From a virus, in the IMG/VR virus record IMGVR_UViG_3300045988_059196: 33,706 nt of DNA; one strand, given 5' to 3'. The position numbers and the translations under genes were made by a program. Positions 1 to 33,706 of the stretch are shown piece by piece (positions within the stretch are counted from its first letter, which is position 1; each line of letters starts with the position of its first letter). Under the pieces are notes generated by a model that saw only the letters and a list, made by a program, of their open reading frames with translations, was not told the origin of the DNA and ran no database searches.

Positions 1-79
1 CTTTTTAAGTGAGTGGTAACATTGGAACATTCTTTCCTAATAGACTTTACACATATGGGCGTTAGGGGCGCGCGCGAAA
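1..79. repeat. Direct terminal repeat, copy A (79 nt, identical to 33628-33706). Indicates a circular or terminally redundant complete genome of 33627 bp.
   Basis: Compared base by base: ctttttaagtgagtggtaacatt...ggggcgcgcgcgaaa occurs at both window ends. Confidence 0.95.
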
Positions 80-175
80 CGCCTATCCGCCTGATCGTGC
101 CCGTCTATACGCGCGCGGGCGCGCGAGAGTTACCAGTGTATGAATTTTACGGTTTGGGAGGGAGGCAAGTAACTG

Positions 176-484
176 ATGTTGGAAAGAAGCGTTGAGCGGA
201 TGCTGCGCGACGGGATTAAGGCGCGCGTTCCAAAGGCCCGCTGTCTGAAATTTGTGACCCCCGGTTTTACAGGAGTGCCCGATAGGATTATTCTGCTTCC
301 CGGTGCGGAAACGGTATTCGTAGAGCTGAAACGTCCGGGACAAGTGGAACGGCAGCGGCAGCTATTCGTACAGGCTGGGCTGCGGAAGCTGGGCTTTAAG
401 GTGTTTTCTGCGGTAGATTCTCCTGAGAAGGTTCAGGAAGTGATTGACTACTGCGGTCGGTGCGAAGGAGGCGGCGGGGCATGA
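176..484 (+). CDS. VRR-NUC domain nuclease
   Basis: 102-aa ORF with the PD-(D/E)xK-type core GVPDRIILLPGAETVFVELKRPG, as in VRR-NUC proteins. It sits next to an SNF2 helicase, a common phage pairing, and its stop overlaps the next start (ATGA). Confidence 0.8.
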   Translation: MLERSVERMLRDGIKARVPKARCLKFVTPGFTGVPDRIILLPGAETVFVELKRPGQVERQRQLFVQAGLRKLGFKVFSAVDSPEKVQEVIDYCGRCEGGGGA

Positions 485-1884
485 AGTTTGTCCCTCATGA
501 TTACCAGCGGTACTGTGAGGAGAAGATCATCGAAACGCCAAACATTGCCCTGTTTCTGGACATGGGACTCGGCAAGACGGTGATTACCCTGACCGCCATT
601 TACAAGCTGAAATACCACCGATTCGCCCTGCGGCGAGCGCTGGTGGTGGCGCCGAAGAAGGTAGCAGAAGCGACATGGAGCAATGAAACCGCAAAATGGG
701 ATCACCTGTCCGCTTTGAGGGTGTCTGTGGTGCTCGGTTCGGCGGCGCGTCGAGAAGCTGCTCTGGCGGCGGAAGCGGATGTGTACGTCATCAACCGAGA
801 TAACGTGGCGTGGCTGGTGGACTATTATTCTGACCCGCGCCACAAGGACAGGACGTGGCCATTTGACTGCGTAGTGCTGGATGAATCGTCGAGCTTTAAG
901 AACCATCAAGCGATACGCTTTAAGAAGCTCAAAGTCATGCGCCCTCGCATTCGCCGCATGATTGAGCTGACCGGTACGCCTACCCCGCATGGGCTAACCG
1001 ACCTGTGGAGTCAAATCTATCTGCTGGACGGCGGCAAGCGGTTAGGGCGCACGGTGTCGGTGTACCGCGATATGTTTTTTCTGCCGGATAAGCGCAACGG
1101 TGCGACGGTGTGGTCTTATAAGCCCCGCGAAGGGGCACAGGAAGCCATTTATGGTCTGCTGAGTGATATATGCGTCAGCATGAAAGCAAGTGACTATCTG
1201 ACCCTACCTGACTGCATCAGCGAAGAAATCCCCGTGAAGCTGGATGAGAAAGCGCAGGCGGCTTACAGCAGGCTGGAGCGGGATATGCTGCTGGAGGTTG
1301 ACCCCGAAACGCTCATCACGGCAAATTCGGCGGGCGTGTTGACCAACAAGCTGTTGCAGTTGTGCGATGGCGCGGTATACGACGAGGCAGGCAATGCGAC
1401 CGTGGTGCATAACTGCAAGATTGAGGCGTTCATGGAAACCGTGGAACAGCTAAACGGGCAGCGGGCGCTTGTGTTCTATAATTTCCAGCACGATAAGGCG
1501 CGGCTGCTGGAGGCGCTGGGAAAGACGAAGCTACACGCGAGGGTGTATGAGGGCGCGGCGGACGAAGCGGATTGGAACGCTGGCAAGATTGATATTCTGC
1601 TGGCGCATCCCGCATCCTGCGCTTACGGCCTGAACCTCCAGCAGGGCGGGCATCATGTGATTTGGTTCGGGCTGACGTGGAGTCTGGAGCTGTACCAACA
1701 GGCCAACAAGCGCCTCCACCGGCAGGGGCAGGAGTATCCCGTAATCATCCACCATTTGATTGTGCAGGGCGGTGTGGATGAGGACGTGATGAAAGCCCTG
1801 TCCGGCAAGGAAAAGACGCAGGAGAGCCTCCTGAACGCCCTGCGGGTGCATTTGGAAAGGGCACGAAAGGAGAGTTGCGTATGA
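481..1884 (+). CDS. SNF2/DEAD-box family helicase
   Basis: Motif I LDMGLGKT, motif II VLDESSSFKN, C-terminal helicase motifs (LLAHPASCAYGLNLQ). RBS GAAGGAGG lies 9 nt upstream of ATG 481; the 460 start in the ORF track is an upstream extension. Confidence 0.9.
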   Translation: MKFVPHDYQRYCEEKIIETPNIALFLDMGLGKTVITLTAIYKLKYHRFALRRALVVAPKKVAEATWSNETAKWDHLSALRVSVVLGSAARREAALAAEADVYVINRDNVAWLVDYYSDPRHKDRTWPFDCVVLDESSSFKNHQAIRFKKLKVMRPRIRRMIELTGTPTPHGLTDLWSQIYLLDGGKRLGRTVSVYRDMFFLPDKRNGATVWSYKPREGAQEAIYGLLSDICVSMKASDYLTLPDCISEEIPVKLDEKAQAAYSRLERDMLLEVDPETLITANSAGVLTNKLLQLCDGAVYDEAGNATVVHNCKIEAFMETVEQLNGQRALVFYNFQHDKARLLEALGKTKLHARVYEGAADEADWNAGKIDILLAHPASCAYGLNLQQGGHHVIWFGLTWSLELYQQANKRLHRQGQEYPVIIHHLIVQGGVDEDVMKALSGKEKTQESLLNALRVHLERARKESCV

Positions 1885-5164: not shown

Positions 5165-5722
5165 TTGGCAAAGGGAGGAAGTAAGCCGGGCGGGCCACAA
5201 TCCAAAAACCTGATCCCAGTGACGCAGCGTTCGCCCGAAGAAGCGCAGGCCATCCGAAGCAAGGGCGGCAAGGCGCGGGCGAAGCAGCGGCACGAACAAG
5301 CACTGCTTTCGCAGATTATCCGTTCGGTGCTGGCTATGGGCTACCGCAAGGGCGCAGTAGCCGACCCCAACGACATTTACACGCTGGAAGAAGCGAAGAA
5401 AAAGAACGTCCCCATTCAGACGCTCATCGTCATGCAGGAAGTGGAGAAGTATCTGGCGACGGGAAACACCGAGTCCCGCGACTGGCTTTTCAAGTACGCT
5501 TTCGGCGAAAACGCCCCTCTGCCGGATTCCCCGGAGGGTGAAGCGGCGGCGCAGGAAGAGGACGGCATCAGCATCCACCTGATACGGGGGGATAAGCCGC
5601 AGGAGCAGGAAAGCGCAGAGGACAAAGCTACACGGGAAGAGGCGAGAAAGGCGACGGCGGAAGCGCTGAAAGCCATCGGTCAGGCCGCCGAAGAAGCGGG
5701 AGCGGATCAAGATGCACAGTGA
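5165..5722 (+). CDS. terS: Terminase small subunit (TTG start)
   Basis: Lies immediately upstream of and overlapping terL. Basic N-terminus (KGGSKPGG, SKGGKARAK) and acidic C-terminus. GGGAGGTG sits 7 nt upstream of TTG 5165. Confidence 0.65.
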   Translation: MAKGGSKPGGPQSKNLIPVTQRSPEEAQAIRSKGGKARAKQRHEQALLSQIIRSVLAMGYRKGAVADPNDIYTLEEAKKKNVPIQTLIVMQEVEKYLATGNTESRDWLFKYAFGENAPLPDSPEGEAAAQEEDGISIHLIRGDKPQEQESAEDKATREEARKATAEALKAIGQAAEEAGADQDAQ

Positions 5723-6956
5723 TGTTTACATCGAGGACTTGCTCGCCCCCAACTATGACGCGCTGCTGGAGGACGTGCTGGCGCATCGGCATTCGCAGTA
5801 CATGCTCAAGGGTGGGCGTGGTTCGCTGAAATCCTCTTTTACCGGCTTTGTTATTCCGCTGATTATGCTGGAGCATCCCGACGTGAACGCCCTGATTCTG
5901 CGCAAGACGGCGAAAACCCTGCGCGATTCTGTGTTTGGGCAGATGCAATTCGCCATCGACAAGCTGGGCCTGAGCGACGAGTTCACCTGCCGGGTGTCGC
6001 CCATGCAGATTAAGCGCGAGAAAACGGGGCAGGTTATCCTTTTCCGAGGGCTGGACGACCCTATGAAAATCAAGTCCATCAAAGCGCCCCGCGGCTACTT
6101 TGGCGTGACGTGGTTCGAGGAAGCCGACCAATTCTCCGGCATGAAGGAAATCCGTTCCGTGCTGCAATCCGCAAGACGCGGCGGCGACCTGTACTGGAAC
6201 TTCATGACGTTCAACCCGCCTGAAACGCAGTCGAACTTCATGAATGAAGAGGTGCTGAGGCCCACTCGCGATACCCTCGTGCATTCGTCGGACTATCGCA
6301 GCGTACCGCCTGAGTGGCTGGGACAGCAGTTTTTCAACGATGCTCTGGAGCTTGCGCTGATTAACCCCAAGGCGTACCGGCACGAGTATCTGGGCGAGGT
6401 CACAGGCACAGGCGGCGAGGTGTTTGACAACCTTGTTATCCGCGAAATTCCAGACAGCGAAATCGCAACGTTCGGCAGCATCTACTTTGGGCTGGACTTT
6501 GGCTGGTATCCCGACCCCGCCCATTGGGTGAAATGCTGCTACAATCCCGCACAGTTGACCCTTTACATCTTCGACGAACTGCGGGCAATCAAAACCAGTA
6601 ACGCCGAGCTGTGGCGGCGCTTGCAGGACGAAAAGGGCATGACTGAAAACGACCCTATCATAGCTGACAGCGCCGAACCGAAAAGCGTTTCCGACCTGCG
6701 CTCCTATGGCTGCTCCTGCCGGGGCGCTGAAAAGGGCCCGGACAGCGTTCGATACAGCATGAAGTGGCTGCAATCGCTGAAAGCCATCGTCATAGACCCT
6801 GCCCGATGCCCCGAAACGGCGCGGGAGTTCACGCATTACGAGTATGAGCGCACGGCGGACGGCGACGTGGTAAGCGGCTACCCGGATGCAGATAACCACT
6901 CCATCGACGCGGTGCGCTACGCGCTGAACCGCGTATGGAAGCGCAAAGGACAATAA
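5712..6956 (+). CDS. terL: Terminase large subunit (PBSX/Terminase_3-like)
   Basis: Walker A LKGGRGSLKS, Walker B-like VTWFEEAD, C-terminal nuclease motifs (GLDFGW, DADNHSIDAVRYAL). Confidence 0.92.
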   Translation: MHSDVYIEDLLAPNYDALLEDVLAHRHSQYMLKGGRGSLKSSFTGFVIPLIMLEHPDVNALILRKTAKTLRDSVFGQMQFAIDKLGLSDEFTCRVSPMQIKREKTGQVILFRGLDDPMKIKSIKAPRGYFGVTWFEEADQFSGMKEIRSVLQSARRGGDLYWNFMTFNPPETQSNFMNEEVLRPTRDTLVHSSDYRSVPPEWLGQQFFNDALELALINPKAYRHEYLGEVTGTGGEVFDNLVIREIPDSEIATFGSIYFGLDFGWYPDPAHWVKCCYNPAQLTLYIFDELRAIKTSNAELWRRLQDEKGMTENDPIIADSAEPKSVSDLRSYGCSCRGAEKGPDSVRYSMKWLQSLKAIVIDPARCPETAREFTHYEYERTADGDVVSGYPDADNHSIDAVRYALNRVWKRKGQ

Positions 6957-29192: not shown

Positions 29193-29209
29193 ATACAGGA
29201 GGAAAACCA

Positions 29210-29662
29210 ATGAGTAGTGTGCTTGCCCGCAAGCGCGGCATATCCAGCATGGAGTTTTATCGCGTGTGCGGCGAATTGAGAACCGTTTTAATCGCGGCGC
29301 TGATGAACGAAAACATCACCCCTAAGCGCTGGCGGCCCATCTTCACGTTCCCCATATCGGCTATGCTGGATGATCTTTTCGGGCATCTAATCGCGGCGAA
29401 TGGCATTTACACAAATACGCCGGAGGCCGTGGCGGAACGGCGGCGCTATCAGCGGTACGCACTCAATGACCTTGAGCGTATTGATGATAAACTGCAAGAA
29501 CTTCTGACGCAGCTTTACTTCGGCAAAATTGATGCAGATCATCCTATGCCTCACGCGCTTGAAACAGCCGGGGACTTAATCGACCGCGCTGACATGCTGA
29601 TTAAAGCGTGGCGCCGAAGCACCAAGCTCATCGTGTCAACCTCGAAAACGGAAAACCAGTAA
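29210..29662 (+). CDS. avd: Accessory variability determinant (Avd-like helical bundle protein)
   Basis: 150 aa, basic and helical, located between the target gene and TR as in canonical DGRs. RBS AGGAGGA upstream of ATG 29210. Confidence 0.7.
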   Translation: MSSVLARKRGISSMEFYRVCGELRTVLIAALMNENITPKRWRPIFTFPISAMLDDLFGHLIAANGIYTNTPEAVAERRRYQRYALNDLERIDDKLQELLTQLYFGKIDADHPMPHALETAGDLIDRADMLIKAWRRSTKLIVSTSKTENQ

Positions 29663-29700
29663 ATTCTCACGGGTTATGTCCTGCAAATCGTTTTGTTTCC

Positions 29701-29828
29701 CGCGGAGCAACTGGTGGTTGGCTTCTGCTTATAGCGGCAACGCCACCAACTTCGTGAATGTCAGCAACAACGGCTACACGAACAACAACAACGCATCCAA
29801 CGCGAATCGCGCCCCCATCTGATTCCAA
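29701..29828 (+). repeat. DGR template repeat (TR)
   Basis: Non-coding copy of VR. By hand count, 36 adenines, concentrated in ten AAC/AAT codons in the VR frame. 12 of them differ in VR. Confidence 0.92.
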
Positions 29829-30044
29829 CGGTTCATCCCGGCCAGACCGAGTAAGCCCGCACAGGCCGAAAGCCGCGCCGATGTTTTTGTTTGGAAGGAG
29901 GACTTAACCCTCCCGCGGGAATGCGGGTAAATACATACCAGCGGTATCTCTCTGGCCGATACCGCGACGTTCGACGCGGCTGCCCGGACGCTTCTTGCAT
30001 GGCACGGGATGGTGACATAGGCGAAGGAATCTAAGCCAAGTACC
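29829..30044 (+). ncRNA. Putative spacer segment of the DGR RNA (between TR and the RT ORF)
   Basis: Non-coding and hairpin-rich (for example gcggtatc 29941-29948 / gataccgc 29958-29965). Called by analogy to the BPP-1 TR-Sp RNA. Boundaries unknown. Confidence 0.35.
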
Positions 30045-31280
30045 GTGTTTCATGAGCAGTCCGCTGTGGAGTACACAACGCACCACTATAACAACACTCT
30101 GCGAGGTATCGAAGTGACCAGTATTGAACGACATGAAGCGCGGTATCGTCGCCGCGTGGCAAAACGCACAGCAAAACGCAGAGCCTTTGCCGAAAAGTAC
30201 GATGATTTTGAACGAGTTACAAGCGTTAGCGCCCTCATCAAGGCACATTGGGAATCGAGAAGGGGCGTTATGTGGAAAGCGTCTGTTGTAAGATACGACG
30301 CACATTTCTTCCGCAACGCCAGACGGGCGAGTCACGCCCTGCGCGCTGGAAAAGATGTGCGCATGGGCTTCTACAACTTTTGCGTAGTGGAGCGCGGAAA
30401 GCCGCGGGACATCCACAGTCTGCATTACGCAGAACGGGTAATCCGACGTGCGGTCTGCATTAACGCTCTTGTCCCGCTGCTTTCTCATAACCTGATATAC
30501 GATAACGGCGCAAGCCTGAAAGGCAAAGGAACCGCATTCCATATCAAGCGTTGTGAAGAGCAACTGCGCCGCTACTACCGGCTGACGGGCAGCAATAACG
30601 GCTACGTTCTGATTATCGACTTCCGTAAATTCTTTGACAACATTCAGCACGGACCTGTGTTTGACATCTACGATAAATACATTCAGGATCCGCGCTTGAA
30701 CTACCTGTGCAAGAGCTTTGTTGCGGCGACGGGCTCCAAGAGCCTTTACATCGGCCCGGAGGACAGCCAAATCACCGCCGTTTCTTACCCTAATAACATC
30801 GACCACAAAATCAAGGACGCATGGGGCTGTGAGAATTATAGCCGCTACATGGATGACTCAGAGCTTGTGCTGAACAACAAGGAAGCGCTGAAAAAGCGGC
30901 GCGACCAGCTCTTTGAAGAATTTGCGAAAAAGGGCATTATTCCGAACCCCAAAAAGACGCAGATCATCAAACTAAGCCGGGGATTTACCTTCCTGAAAAC
31001 GCAGTTTTTCCTCACCGACACCGGCAGGGTTGTCAAAAAGCCCTGTCATGGCAGCGTCAACGTAGAGCGCCGGAAGCTAAGAGCCTTTCGGCGCTTTTAC
31101 GATGCCGGAGAAATGACGCTCGATGACATAGAGCGCTCTTACATGTCATGGCGCGGCATTTTCAAGGGAAAAGACGCGCACACCGTCCTGAGATCGGTCG
31201 ATCTGCTTTACTTTGACTTGTTCGCGGTTAAGCCGTGGATTAGTAAAAACCAACGTCGAAAGGAGAATCATCATGTCTGA
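30045..31280 (+). CDS. DGR reverse transcriptase
   Basis: ERGKPRDIHSLHYAERVIRRAV, IIDFRKFFDNI, YIGPEDSQ (the DGR-type [ILV]GxxxSQ motif) and YMDD. Start uncertain: GTG 30045 or GTG 30114; the first in-frame ATG is at 30270. Confidence 0.9.
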   Translation: MFHEQSAVEYTTHHYNNTLRGIEVTSIERHEARYRRRVAKRTAKRRAFAEKYDDFERVTSVSALIKAHWESRRGVMWKASVVRYDAHFFRNARRASHALRAGKDVRMGFYNFCVVERGKPRDIHSLHYAERVIRRAVCINALVPLLSHNLIYDNGASLKGKGTAFHIKRCEEQLRRYYRLTGSNNGYVLIIDFRKFFDNIQHGPVFDIYDKYIQDPRLNYLCKSFVAATGSKSLYIGPEDSQITAVSYPNNIDHKIKDAWGCENYSRYMDDSELVLNNKEALKKRRDQLFEEFAKKGIIPNPKKTQIIKLSRGFTFLKTQFFLTDTGRVVKKPCHGSVNVERRKLRAFRRFYDAGEMTLDDIERSYMSWRGIFKGKDAHTVLRSVDLLYFDLFAVKPWISKNQRRKENHHV

Positions 31281-33398: not shown

Positions 33399-33434
33399 GC
33401 GCCCCGTCGAAATTGGCGGGGCGCGTTTTTTTTT
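33399..33434 (+). terminator. Strong rho-independent terminator ending the long + strand gene series
   Basis: gcgccccg / cggggcgc stem followed by a run of nine T. Confidence 0.85.
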
Positions 33435-33447
33435 GTGCCGTGAAAAT

Positions 33448-33660
33448 GGTAACATTCTCCCCCAAAAAGCGGGAACATTCTCGGAAAAGTGGTAACAATC
33501 TATGGGAACAATCTTTTTTATGTTACCAGCGAGTGGGAACATTCAATTTTTTCCAATTTGAGAATGTTCCCGCGAATGTTACCAAGAATGTTACCAGAAA
33601 AAATCCCAAAACCCTTGAAAAATAAGACTTTTTAAGTGAGTGGTAACATTGGAACATTCT
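33448..33660. repeat. Iteron-like array: 11 copies of GG(T/G)AACA(T/A)TCT in both orientations (the last two lie within the terminal repeat, also at 15-33)
   Basis: Forward copies at 33448, 33471, 33491, 33504, 33535, 33642, 33651. Inverted copies at 33520, 33560, 33574, 33586. 33535-33544 and 33562-33571 form a 10-bp palindrome pair around a 17-nt AT-rich core. Confidence 0.85.
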
Positions 33661-33706
33661 TTCCTAATAGACTTTACACATATGGGCGTTAGGGGCGCGC
33701 GCGAAA
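33628..33706. repeat. Direct terminal repeat, copy B
   Basis: Exact 79-nt match to positions 1-79. Confidence 0.95.

What the first reader, a model, noticed from the sequence alone, without database searches (positions are those of the whole stretch)
33435..33706. Dense bidirectional GG(T/G)AACA(T/A)TCT repeat array in the only large non-coding region
Eleven copies of a 10-12-nt motif in both orientations fill about 215 nt. They lie between the final terminator and the first gene; across the circular junction the non-coding tract continues to position 175. The forward copies alternate GGTAAC and GGGAAC variants (starts 33448, 33471, 33491, 33504). A 10-bp palindrome pair (33535-33544 / 33562-33571) flanks a 17-nt AT-rich core. 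Past the junction come alternating CG tracts (about 66-77 and 110-126). This resembles a replication origin or a multi-site operator, but no initiator or repressor gene is recognisable in the genome.
Basis: seen in the sequence. Interest (0 to 1): 0.62.

Follow-up and report, generated by a model that had tools for sequence, protein, structure and literature searches.

The report
Iteron replication origin of a prophage
The repeat array is most likely the binding-site cluster of a replication origin for a primase-helicase that the full gut prophage encodes just upstream; that gene is missing here because the 33.7-kb 'circular genome' is only the stretch between two copies of the origin cassette.

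Summary
Eleven GG(T/G)AACA(T/A)TCT-type sites lie at 33448-33660, and a degenerate twelfth at 125-134. Exact matches to the 9-nt core occur nowhere else in the window (10 found, 0.8 expected).

The context is wrong. The window is not a complete genome. The array belongs to a ~316-bp cassette R (33446-33627 plus 1-134) that occurs twice in a larger prophage integrated beside the tmRNA gene.
- R1 starts 2 nt after the stop codon of an 804-aa VapE-type primase-helicase. Residues 369-802 of that protein match SaPI1 Rep1 (PDB 7PDS), E 2e-82.
- R2 follows the holin terminator and precedes a ~4-kb accessory module.
- The window is the R1-to-R2 late region closed on the repeat.

About 60 of 74 scorable homologues of this helicase (56-100% identity), and the cultured Paenibacillus phage Pd_22F, carry an analogous array that begins near the stop codon. 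The motif varies and tracks the helicase C-terminal domain.

This matches the described SaPI Rep/ori layout: about 300 bp, 6-12 iterons facing each other across A+T-rich DNA, directly after rep. Second and third co-evolving copies recur in relatives, as with SPP1 oriL/oriR.

Verdict: a new member of a known kind. Binding and origin firing are inferred, not shown.

The parts
33399..33433 (+). Intrinsic terminator of the lysis operon. It lies just left of the cassette and is not part of the repeat R.
   Evidence: 11-bp stem with 9 G-C pairs, followed by a T run. Homology between the holin-flanked and VapE-flanked copies starts only at about 33446.
33446..33706 (+). Left and middle of origin cassette R (about 316 bp in all). 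It continues at 80-134. Positions 33628-33706 are the same DNA as 1-79.
   Evidence: The blastn match to the VapE-flanked copy in a 37-kb IMG/VR contig starts exactly at 33446. The overlap identity was checked.
33448..33514 (+). Four forward iterons: GGTAACATTCT at 33448, GGGAACATTCT at 33471, GGTAACAATCT at 33491, GGGAACAATCT at 33504.
33520..33528 (-). Partial reverse iteron (ATGTTACCA).
   Evidence: D6, I16.
33535..33545 (+). Forward iteron GGGAACATTCA, the left arm of the 10-bp inverted pair.
   Evidence: I9.
33545..33561 (.). 17-nt A+T-rich spacer between facing iterons. It is a candidate melting site.
   Evidence: I9; A+T 0.70-0.80 in 20-nt windows.
33561..33595 (-). Three reverse iterons spaced 12 nt apart (33561-33571, 33573-33583, 33585-33595).
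   Evidence: D5.
33504..33571 (.). 68-bp central segment bounded by inverted iterons. It is found flipped in some relatives.
   Evidence: the reverse complement matches L029 at 61 of 68 positions (score 54, against 21 in forward orientation). The same form occurs in L002, L028 and L035.
33596..33641 (.). A+T-rich spacer (65-80% A+T).
33642..33660 (+). Tandem overlapping iteron pair GGTAACATT / TGGAACATTCT (the same DNA as 15-33).
   Evidence: A tandem pair at this place is conserved in about 20 lineages, each using its own motif.
37..128 (+). Conserved non-iteron core: CTAATAGAC (37-45), TTAGGGG (62-68), ACGCCTATCCGCCT (79-92), TATACGCGCGCGGGCGCGCGAGA (106-128). Positions 37-79 equal 33664-33706.
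   Evidence: The blocks are conserved across lineages whose iterons differ, and in Paenibacillus phage Pd_22F. Their function is not established.
125..134 (-). Degenerate terminal iteron (GAGAGTTACC). It marks the right edge of R.
   Evidence: homology with the X-flanked copies ends here. Relatives carry a full inverted iteron at this place.
176..1884 (+). VRR-NUC nuclease (176-484) and SNF2 helicase (460-1884), the first genes after the cassette.

Best explanation
The array is the iteron set of a replication origin of the SaPI Rep/ori type. The proposed binder is the C-terminal winged-helix domain of a VapE-type primase-helicase, a self-loading SF3 helicase.

In the complete prophage, that gene ends 2 nt before the first iteron. 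Hexamers would load on the facing iteron sets and melt the A+T-rich DNA between them.

The cassette R (array plus a conserved core) is present twice. R1 follows the helicase gene. R2 follows the lysis genes. The window is the R1-to-R2 late region joined on the repeat, so its copy is an R2-left/R1-right composite and its initiator lies outside the window.

R2 is probably a second origin or a helicase-bound fork barrier, as proposed for SPP1 oriR.

Shown here: the anatomy, the linkage to the helicase gene, the copy number, and the conservation with a changing motif. Inferred: binding, melting, origin firing and the role of R2.
For: 1. Statistics and anatomy. There are 10 exact core sites against 0.8 expected, all in one 215-nt tract. 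The sites face each other across A+T-rich DNA.

2. Linkage to the helicase gene.
- In a 37-kb IMG/VR relative, the 804-aa ORF's stop codon abuts the first iteron.
- The same holds in all 10 longest contigs with the window's exact VRR-NUC.

3. Identity of the helicase. The ORF matches PF05272 (E 1.8e-75) and phrog_256. Residues 369-802 match SaPI1 Rep1 over chain residues 15-465 of 477, E 2e-82. PDB 7PDS is the Rep1-DNA complex.

4. The published paradigm. PMC9371898 and bioRxiv 10.64898/2026.10.17.759575 describe the SaPI ori as immediately downstream of rep, about 300 bp, with 6-12 iterons oppositely disposed around an A+T-rich region and bound by the winged helix of the C-terminal domain.

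5. Conservation with a changing motif.
- Of 80 homologues at 56-100% identity, 74 could be scored. About 60 of them have an 8-mer present at least 4 times in the stretch that starts at the stop codon. The close start was read directly in the window's lineage, in L013 and L014 and in Pd_22F.
- The motif varies: GTTACA, GTCAACA, ATCACAAA, TGTAAGA.
- It tracks the C-terminal wing sequence.
- Partial Spearman correlation of iteron sharing with C-terminal-domain identity is 0.47 with core identity controlled. The reverse (core identity, C-terminal domain controlled) is 0.29.

6. A cultured phage. Paenibacillus phage Pd_22F has the same layout.

7. Two copies in one molecule.
- A 77-kb contig holds both junctions.
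- In G010, the 139 nt of R2 held before the contig ends are 97.8% identical to its own R1, although its iterons differ from the window's.
- In the complete 61.5-kb G014, all 18 exact motif copies lie in two syntenic arrays.
Against:
- The motif-to-domain correlation is confounded by shared ancestry. Its p-values come from non-independent pairs.
- Three copies in G012, one of them between terL and portal, is unusual for an origin.
- The cassette's conserved core suggests a second, unidentified factor or function.
- Every copy has the same orientation as the downstream genes, which would also suit a transcriptional element.
- The window itself encodes no initiator, so in this molecule, if it exists as such, the site would work only in trans.
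Confidence: 0.78

Rival explanations
1. R is a regulatory cassette. The repeats would be operators for a phage regulator (for example the ArpU/RinA-like protein at 1875-2375, the RHH protein or the Bro-N protein). The conserved core would be a promoter or leader placed in front of several rightward operons.
For: - All copies point the same way as the downstream genes.
- Each copy precedes a gene block: VRR-NUC and the late genes, the X module, or portal in G012.
- The core is conserved independently of the iterons.
Against: - No sigma-70-type promoter is found in R, and none recurs at a fixed place across lineages.
- The X module has its own TTGACA-N17-TATTAT promoter downstream of R2.
- There is no Rfam match, no consensus RNA fold and no arm covariation.
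- In most homologues the repeats lie in the stretch that starts at the helicase stop codon. That is the defining position of a Rep origin.
Confidence: 0.1
2. R is a recombination site. The 33.6-kb late region would be an excisable element bounded by direct repeats, and the window would be its real circular form.
For: All four junction types exist: VapE-R-VRR-NUC, holin-R-X, holin-R-VRR-NUC (the window, L003, L006, L028, L037) and VapE-R-X (L033).
Against: - The 'circle' junction appears only in contigs of 33.7 kb or less, and the 'empty' junction only once, in a 3.6-kb contig.
- All long contigs show the integrated order.
- Many contigs break inside or at the edge of R, as a collapsed repeat would cause.
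- The window has no recombinase.
- The prophage has a serine integrase and ends at the tmRNA gene.
- Copies in G012 and G014 are only 79-83% alike.
Confidence: 0.07
3. R is a packaging site: cos or pac with small-terminase binding repeats. Physical DNA ends would lie near the GC tract.
For: Three IMG/VR contigs start at window positions 80, 83 and 87, and the window ends at 79.
Against: - Those ends lie about 50-55 nt inside the right edge of R (position 134). That is where a de Bruijn assembler stops at a repeat.
- Other contigs stop at other places in R.
- The putative terS gene is 5 kb away.
- The array is tied to the helicase gene, not to the terminase, across many phages.
Confidence: 0.03

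Closest known systems
SaPI replication origins with Rep1 / PriRep5 self-loading SF3 helicases (PMC9371898; bioRxiv 10.64898/2026.10.17.759575)
   Same: - The initiator is homologous: E 2e-82 to Rep1, PDB 7PDS, including the C-terminal domain.
- The primase-helicase fusion resembles PriRep5.
- The origin lies directly after the gene and spans about 300 bp.
- There are 11-12 short iterons facing each other across A+T-rich DNA.
   Different: - This is a full temperate siphovirus-like phage of a human-gut metagenome host that no tool named, not a satellite island.
- The iterons are 10-11 nt rather than 5-6 nt.
- The cassette carries an extra conserved core.
- It is present in two, and in a relative three, co-evolving copies.
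Bacillus phage SPP1 oriL / oriR bound by gp38 (PMC6316719, PMC3485210)
   Same: - Two similarly built clusters of initiator-binding repeats with A+T-rich DNA.
- One is at the initiator gene. The other is in a non-coding, moron-bearing gap of the late region.
- A nuclease, an exonuclease, an annealing-type ssDNA-binding protein and a helicase are encoded nearby, as in the proposed theta-to-sigma switch.
   Different: - The initiator is unrelated: an SF3 VapE-type protein rather than gp38 with a DnaB-type helicase and its loader.
- SPP1 oriL lies inside gene 38, whereas R1 lies after the gene.
- No evidence here shows that R2 stalls forks.
Satellite phage P4 ori and crr bound by the alpha primase-helicase
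   Same: A multifunctional primase-helicase with a C-terminal DNA-binding domain recognises short iterons in both orientations at two separated loci.
   Different: Homology to P4 alpha was not tested. P4 ori and crr are 4.5 kb apart, and crr is an enhancer. Here the copies are about 33 kb apart.
Paenibacillus phage Pd_22F (MZ092003.1), region 62585-62868
   Same: It has a VapE gene (52% identity), then CGTCAAC iterons in both orientations, a tandem pair, the TAATAGAG / TTAGAGAG / CATATACG core and a final inverted iteron, then the nuclease and helicase genes.
   Different: The iteron sequence differs. It also carries a DnaA-box-like TGTGGATAA that the window lacks. The region is not annotated as an origin in the record.

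Membership tests
Rep/iteron origin of the SaPI type (self-loading SF3 helicase) | A cognate Rep or PriRep gene with an SF3 ATPase and a C-terminal winged-helix domain | tested here: met
   The 804-aa ORF in full-length relatives matches PF05272 (E 1.8e-75) and Rep1 (7PDS) at E 2e-82 over residues 369-802. The gene is absent from the window itself.
Rep/iteron origin of the SaPI type (self-loading SF3 helicase) | The origin lies immediately downstream of the rep ORF | tested here: met
   The stop codon is 2 nt before the first iteron. The same arrangement holds in the 10 of 10 longest contigs, and most of 74 scorable homologues have repeats in that stretch.
Rep/iteron origin of the SaPI type (self-loading SF3 helicase) | 6-12 short iterons on both sides of an A+T-rich region, pointing in opposite directions, over about 300 bp | tested here: met
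   11-12 sites. Forward sites lie at 33448-33545 and reverse sites at 33561-33595, around a 17-nt A+T-rich spacer. The cassette is about 316 bp.
Rep/iteron origin of the SaPI type (self-loading SF3 helicase) | Iteron sequence is specific to the cognate C-terminal domain | tested here: inconclusive
   Motif classes track the wing sequences. The partial correlation is 0.47, against 0.29 for the reverse. Shared ancestry is not excluded.
Rep/iteron origin of the SaPI type (self-loading SF3 helicase) | Rep binds the iterons and drives replication of DNA that carries the ori | not testable with these tools
   This needs EMSA and an ori-plasmid assay.
Dual origins of the SPP1 type (oriL/oriR) | Two similarly organised clusters of initiator-binding repeats in one genome | tested here: met
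   The 77-kb contig holds both junctions. G010 R1 and R2 are 97.8% alike over 139 nt. G014 has two arrays, and its motif occurs nowhere else in 61.5 kb.
Dual origins of the SPP1 type (oriL/oriR) | A gp38-type initiator with a gp39 loader and a DnaB-type gp40 helicase | tested here: not met
   The one initiator candidate identified is an SF3 VapE-type primase-helicase. The other genes annotated in the early region are a PolA-type polymerase, an exonuclease and a Gp2.5-like ssDNA-binding protein. Only 10 of its ORFs were annotated, so the absence of a DnaB-type helicase or a loader was not checked.
cos/pac packaging site with small-terminase binding repeats | Adjacent to the terminase genes, with defined DNA ends at the site | tested here: not met
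   terS and terL lie at 5165-6956. Contig ends scatter within R in the way expected for a collapsed repeat.
Operator array of a phage repressor | The sites overlap a promoter, and a cognate repressor gene lies nearby | tested here: not met
   No promoter-like site is found in R. No repressor is adjacent in either context.

The most novel reading that the evidence does not exclude
The duplicated or triplicated origin cassettes may be a functional system rather than spare copies. Helicase bound at R2 (and at the terL-portal copy in G012) would act as a programmed fork barrier or second origin that switches replication to concatemer synthesis. Recombination between R1 and R2 would release an origin-bearing 33.6-kb late-gene circle in vivo. 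In that case the window would be a real subgenomic replicon, amplified in trans by the prophage's helicase.
Probability: 0.1. Interest if true: 0.65.

Novelty: new member of a known kind. Interest (0 to 1): 0.36.

Why it matters
1. It corrects the reading of this window. The apparent 'complete phage without integrase, repressor or replication genes' is the stretch between two copies of a repeat, closed on that repeat. The real prophage carries a serine integrase, a DNA polymerase, an exonuclease, an ssDNA-binding protein and the initiator-helicase. DTR or 'circular' calls for such contigs, and completeness estimates built on them, should be distrusted.

2. It extends the experimentally defined SaPI Rep/ori design to a large group of gut and soil temperate phages. 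That gives a simple rule for locating their origins: the repeat tract after the VapE-type gene.

3. The recurring second and third cassette copies, which co-evolve with the first, and the conserved non-iteron core are not explained by the SaPI model. They offer a testable handle on how these phages organise replication.

Tried and rejected
- Cumulative GC skew: no informative turn.
- blastn of the region against 50,697 phage records: no match.
- Exact-pattern scan of species-representative genomes: no match, so no tool named the host.
- Physical ends (cos) inferred from contigs starting at 80, 83 and 87: rejected. These positions are about one k-mer inside the repeat's right edge, and other contigs break elsewhere in R.
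- Structured RNA in the conserved core: only sub-threshold Rfam matches, no RNAalifold consensus, and no excess complementarity of a lineage's own arms over other lineages' arms (1.82 against 2.0 mismatches).
- Sigma-70 promoter in R: none in the window, and none recurs at a fixed position in 23 lineages.
- Metagenome contigs could not be opened through the genome search. As a result the R1-R2 distance inside the 77-kb contig was not measured.
- A P4 ori/crr paper could not be found in the library.

Full report
**1. Observation**

The tract 33435-33706 was read together with 1-600. GGKAACAWT occurs 10 times in the window, against 0.82 expected and never more than 3 in 100 shuffles. Every match lies in the tract. 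Allowing one mismatch in the 11-mer adds TGGAACATTCT at 33650.

The repeat finder recovers the following:
- the forward copies at 33448, 33471, 33491, 33504 and 33535;
- the reverse copies at 33561, 33573 and 33585, spaced 12 nt apart;
- a partial reverse copy at 33520-33528;
- the perfect 10-bp inverted pair 33535-33544 / 33562-33571, with 17 nt between the arms.

That spacer and the stretch 33596-33641 are 65-80% A+T. The window as a whole is about 55% G+C. A strong terminator lies at 33399-33433. Positions 33628-33706 are identical to 1-79, so this stretch is a single piece of DNA written twice.

**2. The window is not a complete genome**

The window's genes are as follows:
- VRR-NUC nuclease, SNF2 helicase, an ArpU/RinA-like regulator and a DUF4417 protein;
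- ADP-ribosyltransferase-like proteins;
- a putative small terminase and the large terminase;
- a stretch of ORFs not annotated here, where tblastn finds homologues of the window ORFs I took as portal, major capsid and tape measure;
- a diversity-generating retroelement reverse transcriptase;
- an endolysin and two small ORFs with no family match, taken here as the holins.

Close relatives fall into classes that differ only to the left or right of a ~316-bp cassette R (33446-33627 plus 1-134).
- On the left, R is preceded either by the holin and its terminator, or by an 804-aa ORF whose stop codon lies 2 nt before the first repeat.
- On the right, R is followed either by VRR-NUC or by a module X.
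- Homology to a 37-kb relative starts exactly at 33446.

For the window's exact VRR-NUC protein, all ten longest contigs (53-810 kb) have the 804-aa gene upstream. For its exact holin, the two long contigs (91 and 96 kb) continue into X. The remaining contigs stop 100-270 nt after the holin, inside R.

X consists of a 119-aa protein, a DUF3846 protein, an N6-methyltransferase-like protein and a Macro-domain protein. Three reverse-strand genes follow, one of them with a Bro-N domain. Then come a tmRNA gene, smpB and host genes. This context is seen in contigs of up to 3.29 Mb.

One 77-kb contig contains both VapE-R-VRR-NUC and holin-R-X.

The region left of R1 encodes a large serine integrase, an exonuclease, a Gp2.5-like ssDNA-binding protein, a family-A-like DNA polymerase, thymidylate synthase and methyltransferases.

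The prophage order is therefore: integrase, early genes, VapE, R1, late genes, holin, R2, X, tmRNA. The window is the R1-to-R2 segment closed on the repeat.

Contigs that start at window positions 80, 83 and 87 lie about one k-mer inside R's right edge. I read these as repeat breaks, not DNA ends.

The holin-R-VRR-NUC junction occurs only in contigs of 33.7 kb or less (the window, L003, L006, L028, L037). The reciprocal VapE-R-X junction occurs once, in a 3.6-kb contig (L033). I judge assembly closure on a collapsed repeat more likely than a real circle.

**3. What the array is**

The 804-aa protein matches PF05272 (VapE-like, E 1.8e-75) and phrog_256. Its residues 369-802 align to residues 15-465 of the 477-residue chain of PDB 7PDS at E 2e-82. 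7PDS is the SaPI1 Rep1-DNA complex.

The papers on these proteins state the following:
- SaPI Reps are self-loading SF3 initiator-helicases.
- A winged helix in the C-terminal domain binds iterons.
- The ori lies immediately downstream of rep and spans about 300 bp.
- It holds 6-12 iterons arranged in opposite orientations around an A+T-rich region.
- SaPI5 fuses primase and Rep into one protein.

R1 meets each anatomical point.

The linkage is general. Of 80 IMG/VR homologues at 56-100% identity, 74 could be scored. About 60 have an 8-mer present at least four times in the stretch that starts at the stop codon. The motif changes between lineages: ATGTTACA, GGTGTTACA, AATGTAACA, TGTCAACA, TATCACAAA and GAATGTAAGA are examples. 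Motif classes go with distinct C-terminal 'wing' sequences:
- RCGPYG with TGTCAACA;
- FY.G..Y.TQRG with ATCACAAA / ATTACAAA;
- PQ(Y/H)G with TGTAAGA;
- GRFGKAYGDKQRGF with the window's motif.

Iteron sharing correlates with C-terminal-domain identity after controlling for core identity (partial rho 0.47). The reverse correlation is weaker (0.29). Pairs are not independent, so this is supportive only.

More distant relatives show the same layout with other motifs. So does the cultured Paenibacillus phage Pd_22F, where VapE is followed by CGTCAAC iterons in both orientations and then by the nuclease and helicase genes.

**4. Copy number and cassette structure**

G010 (VapE 83% identical, different iteron arrangement) carries an R2 after its holin. 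The 139 nt of it that the contig holds are 97.8% identical to its own R1.

G014 is a 61.5-kb contig with direct terminal repeats. All 18 exact copies of its motif lie in two arrays. One follows VapE. The other lies upstream of the homologues of the first two X genes and of the serine integrase, downstream of the tape-measure homologue. That is the position equivalent to R2.

G012 has three arrays: after VapE, between terL and portal, and a third downstream of the late genes, about 2.3 kb before the Macro-domain gene of X. G007, G008 and G013 have one array each.

Extra copies are therefore recurrent, syntenic, and co-evolve with the first. This argues that the same protein reads them.

The closest precedent is SPP1. 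There gp38 binds oriL, at its own gene, and oriR, in a moron-bearing non-coding gap of the late region. oriR-bound gp38 is proposed to stall forks and trigger the switch to concatemer synthesis, with a Holliday-junction resolvase, an exonuclease, an annealase and an SSB. P4 ori/crr is a further analogue, cited from memory only.

The right half of R carries a tandem iteron pair and then blocks conserved across lineages whose iterons differ: CTAATAGAC, TTAGGG, ACGCCTAAAACGCCT and TATACGCGCGCGAGA. A final inverted iteron closes the cassette. I found no support for an RNA structure or a promoter in this core. Its role is open.

The central 68 bp (33504-33571), bounded by inverted iterons, is flipped in L002, L028, L029 and L035.

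**5. Verdict**

The array is best read as an iteron origin of a known type whose initiator lies outside this truncated, repeat-closed window. My confidence is about 0.78. Rivals, in descending order, are a regulatory cassette, a recombination site producing a real late-gene circle, and a packaging site.

Novelty: a new member of a known kind. The multi-copy cassette and its conserved core are the parts worth following up.

Noticed in passing
window 1-33706 (whole contig): The 'circular' 33.6-kb contig with a 79-nt overlap is the segment between two copies of a ~316-bp repeat in a larger prophage. IMG/VR completeness estimates of about 33 kb for relatives (G001, G005) may inherit the same error.
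   Followed up: yes
window 33504-33571; L002, L028, L029, L035: The 68-bp centre of the array, bounded by inverted iterons, occurs in both orientations among otherwise near-identical relatives (61 of 68 matches to the reverse complement). A smaller nested flip of the AGCGAGT spacer is seen in L022 and L034.
   Followed up: partly
window 37-128 (37-79 equal 33664-33706); L160 5060-5175: A non-iteron core (CTAATAGAC, TTAGGG, ACGCCTAAAACGCCT, TATACGCGCGCGAGA) is conserved at the DNA level across phages whose helicases are only 52-68% identical. TTAGGsG and CsCCTAA units form inverted sets that change together in some lineages (GGGAG/CTCCC, GGCGT/ACGCC, AGAGAG/CTCTCT), but a simple covariation test was negative.
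   Followed up: partly
L046 9400-14970; L036 3216-6500: The prophage's right arm is a ~4-kb accessory module behind its own TTGACA-N17-TATTAT promoter. It encodes a 119-aa protein, a DUF3846 protein, an N6-methyltransferase-like protein and a Macro-domain protein, followed by a reverse-strand Bro-N gene. The element ends at a tmRNA gene (tag DNNQYAFAA) next to smpB. Some copies carry an IS (DDE_Tnp_1) insertion.
   Followed up: partly
L036 3180-3275; L030 (R2): R2 copies carry short tandem duplications of core pieces. GTCTATACGCGCGCGGGCGCGCGAGAGTTACC is doubled in L036, and ATAGACTTTACAAATATGGGCGTTAGGG is doubled in L030.
   Followed up: no
G012 29551-29803 (L148): A third origin-cassette copy sits between terL and portal in a relative. 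In the window, the same gap holds a 2.2-kb insert with RHH and Bro-N genes. In SPP1, oriR also interrupts the head-gene order alongside morons.
   Followed up: partly
L160 4998-5006 (Paenibacillus phage Pd_22F): A perfect DnaA-box-like TGTGGATAA lies between the iteron sets of this phage's cassette. The window has no such box at the equivalent place.
   Followed up: no
L032, L036, L037, L028 against window 29203-31101: Several relatives lack the 1.9-kb stretch carrying the template repeat and the reverse transcriptase of the diversity-generating retroelement, which the window has. The element is therefore polymorphic in this phage population.
   Followed up: no
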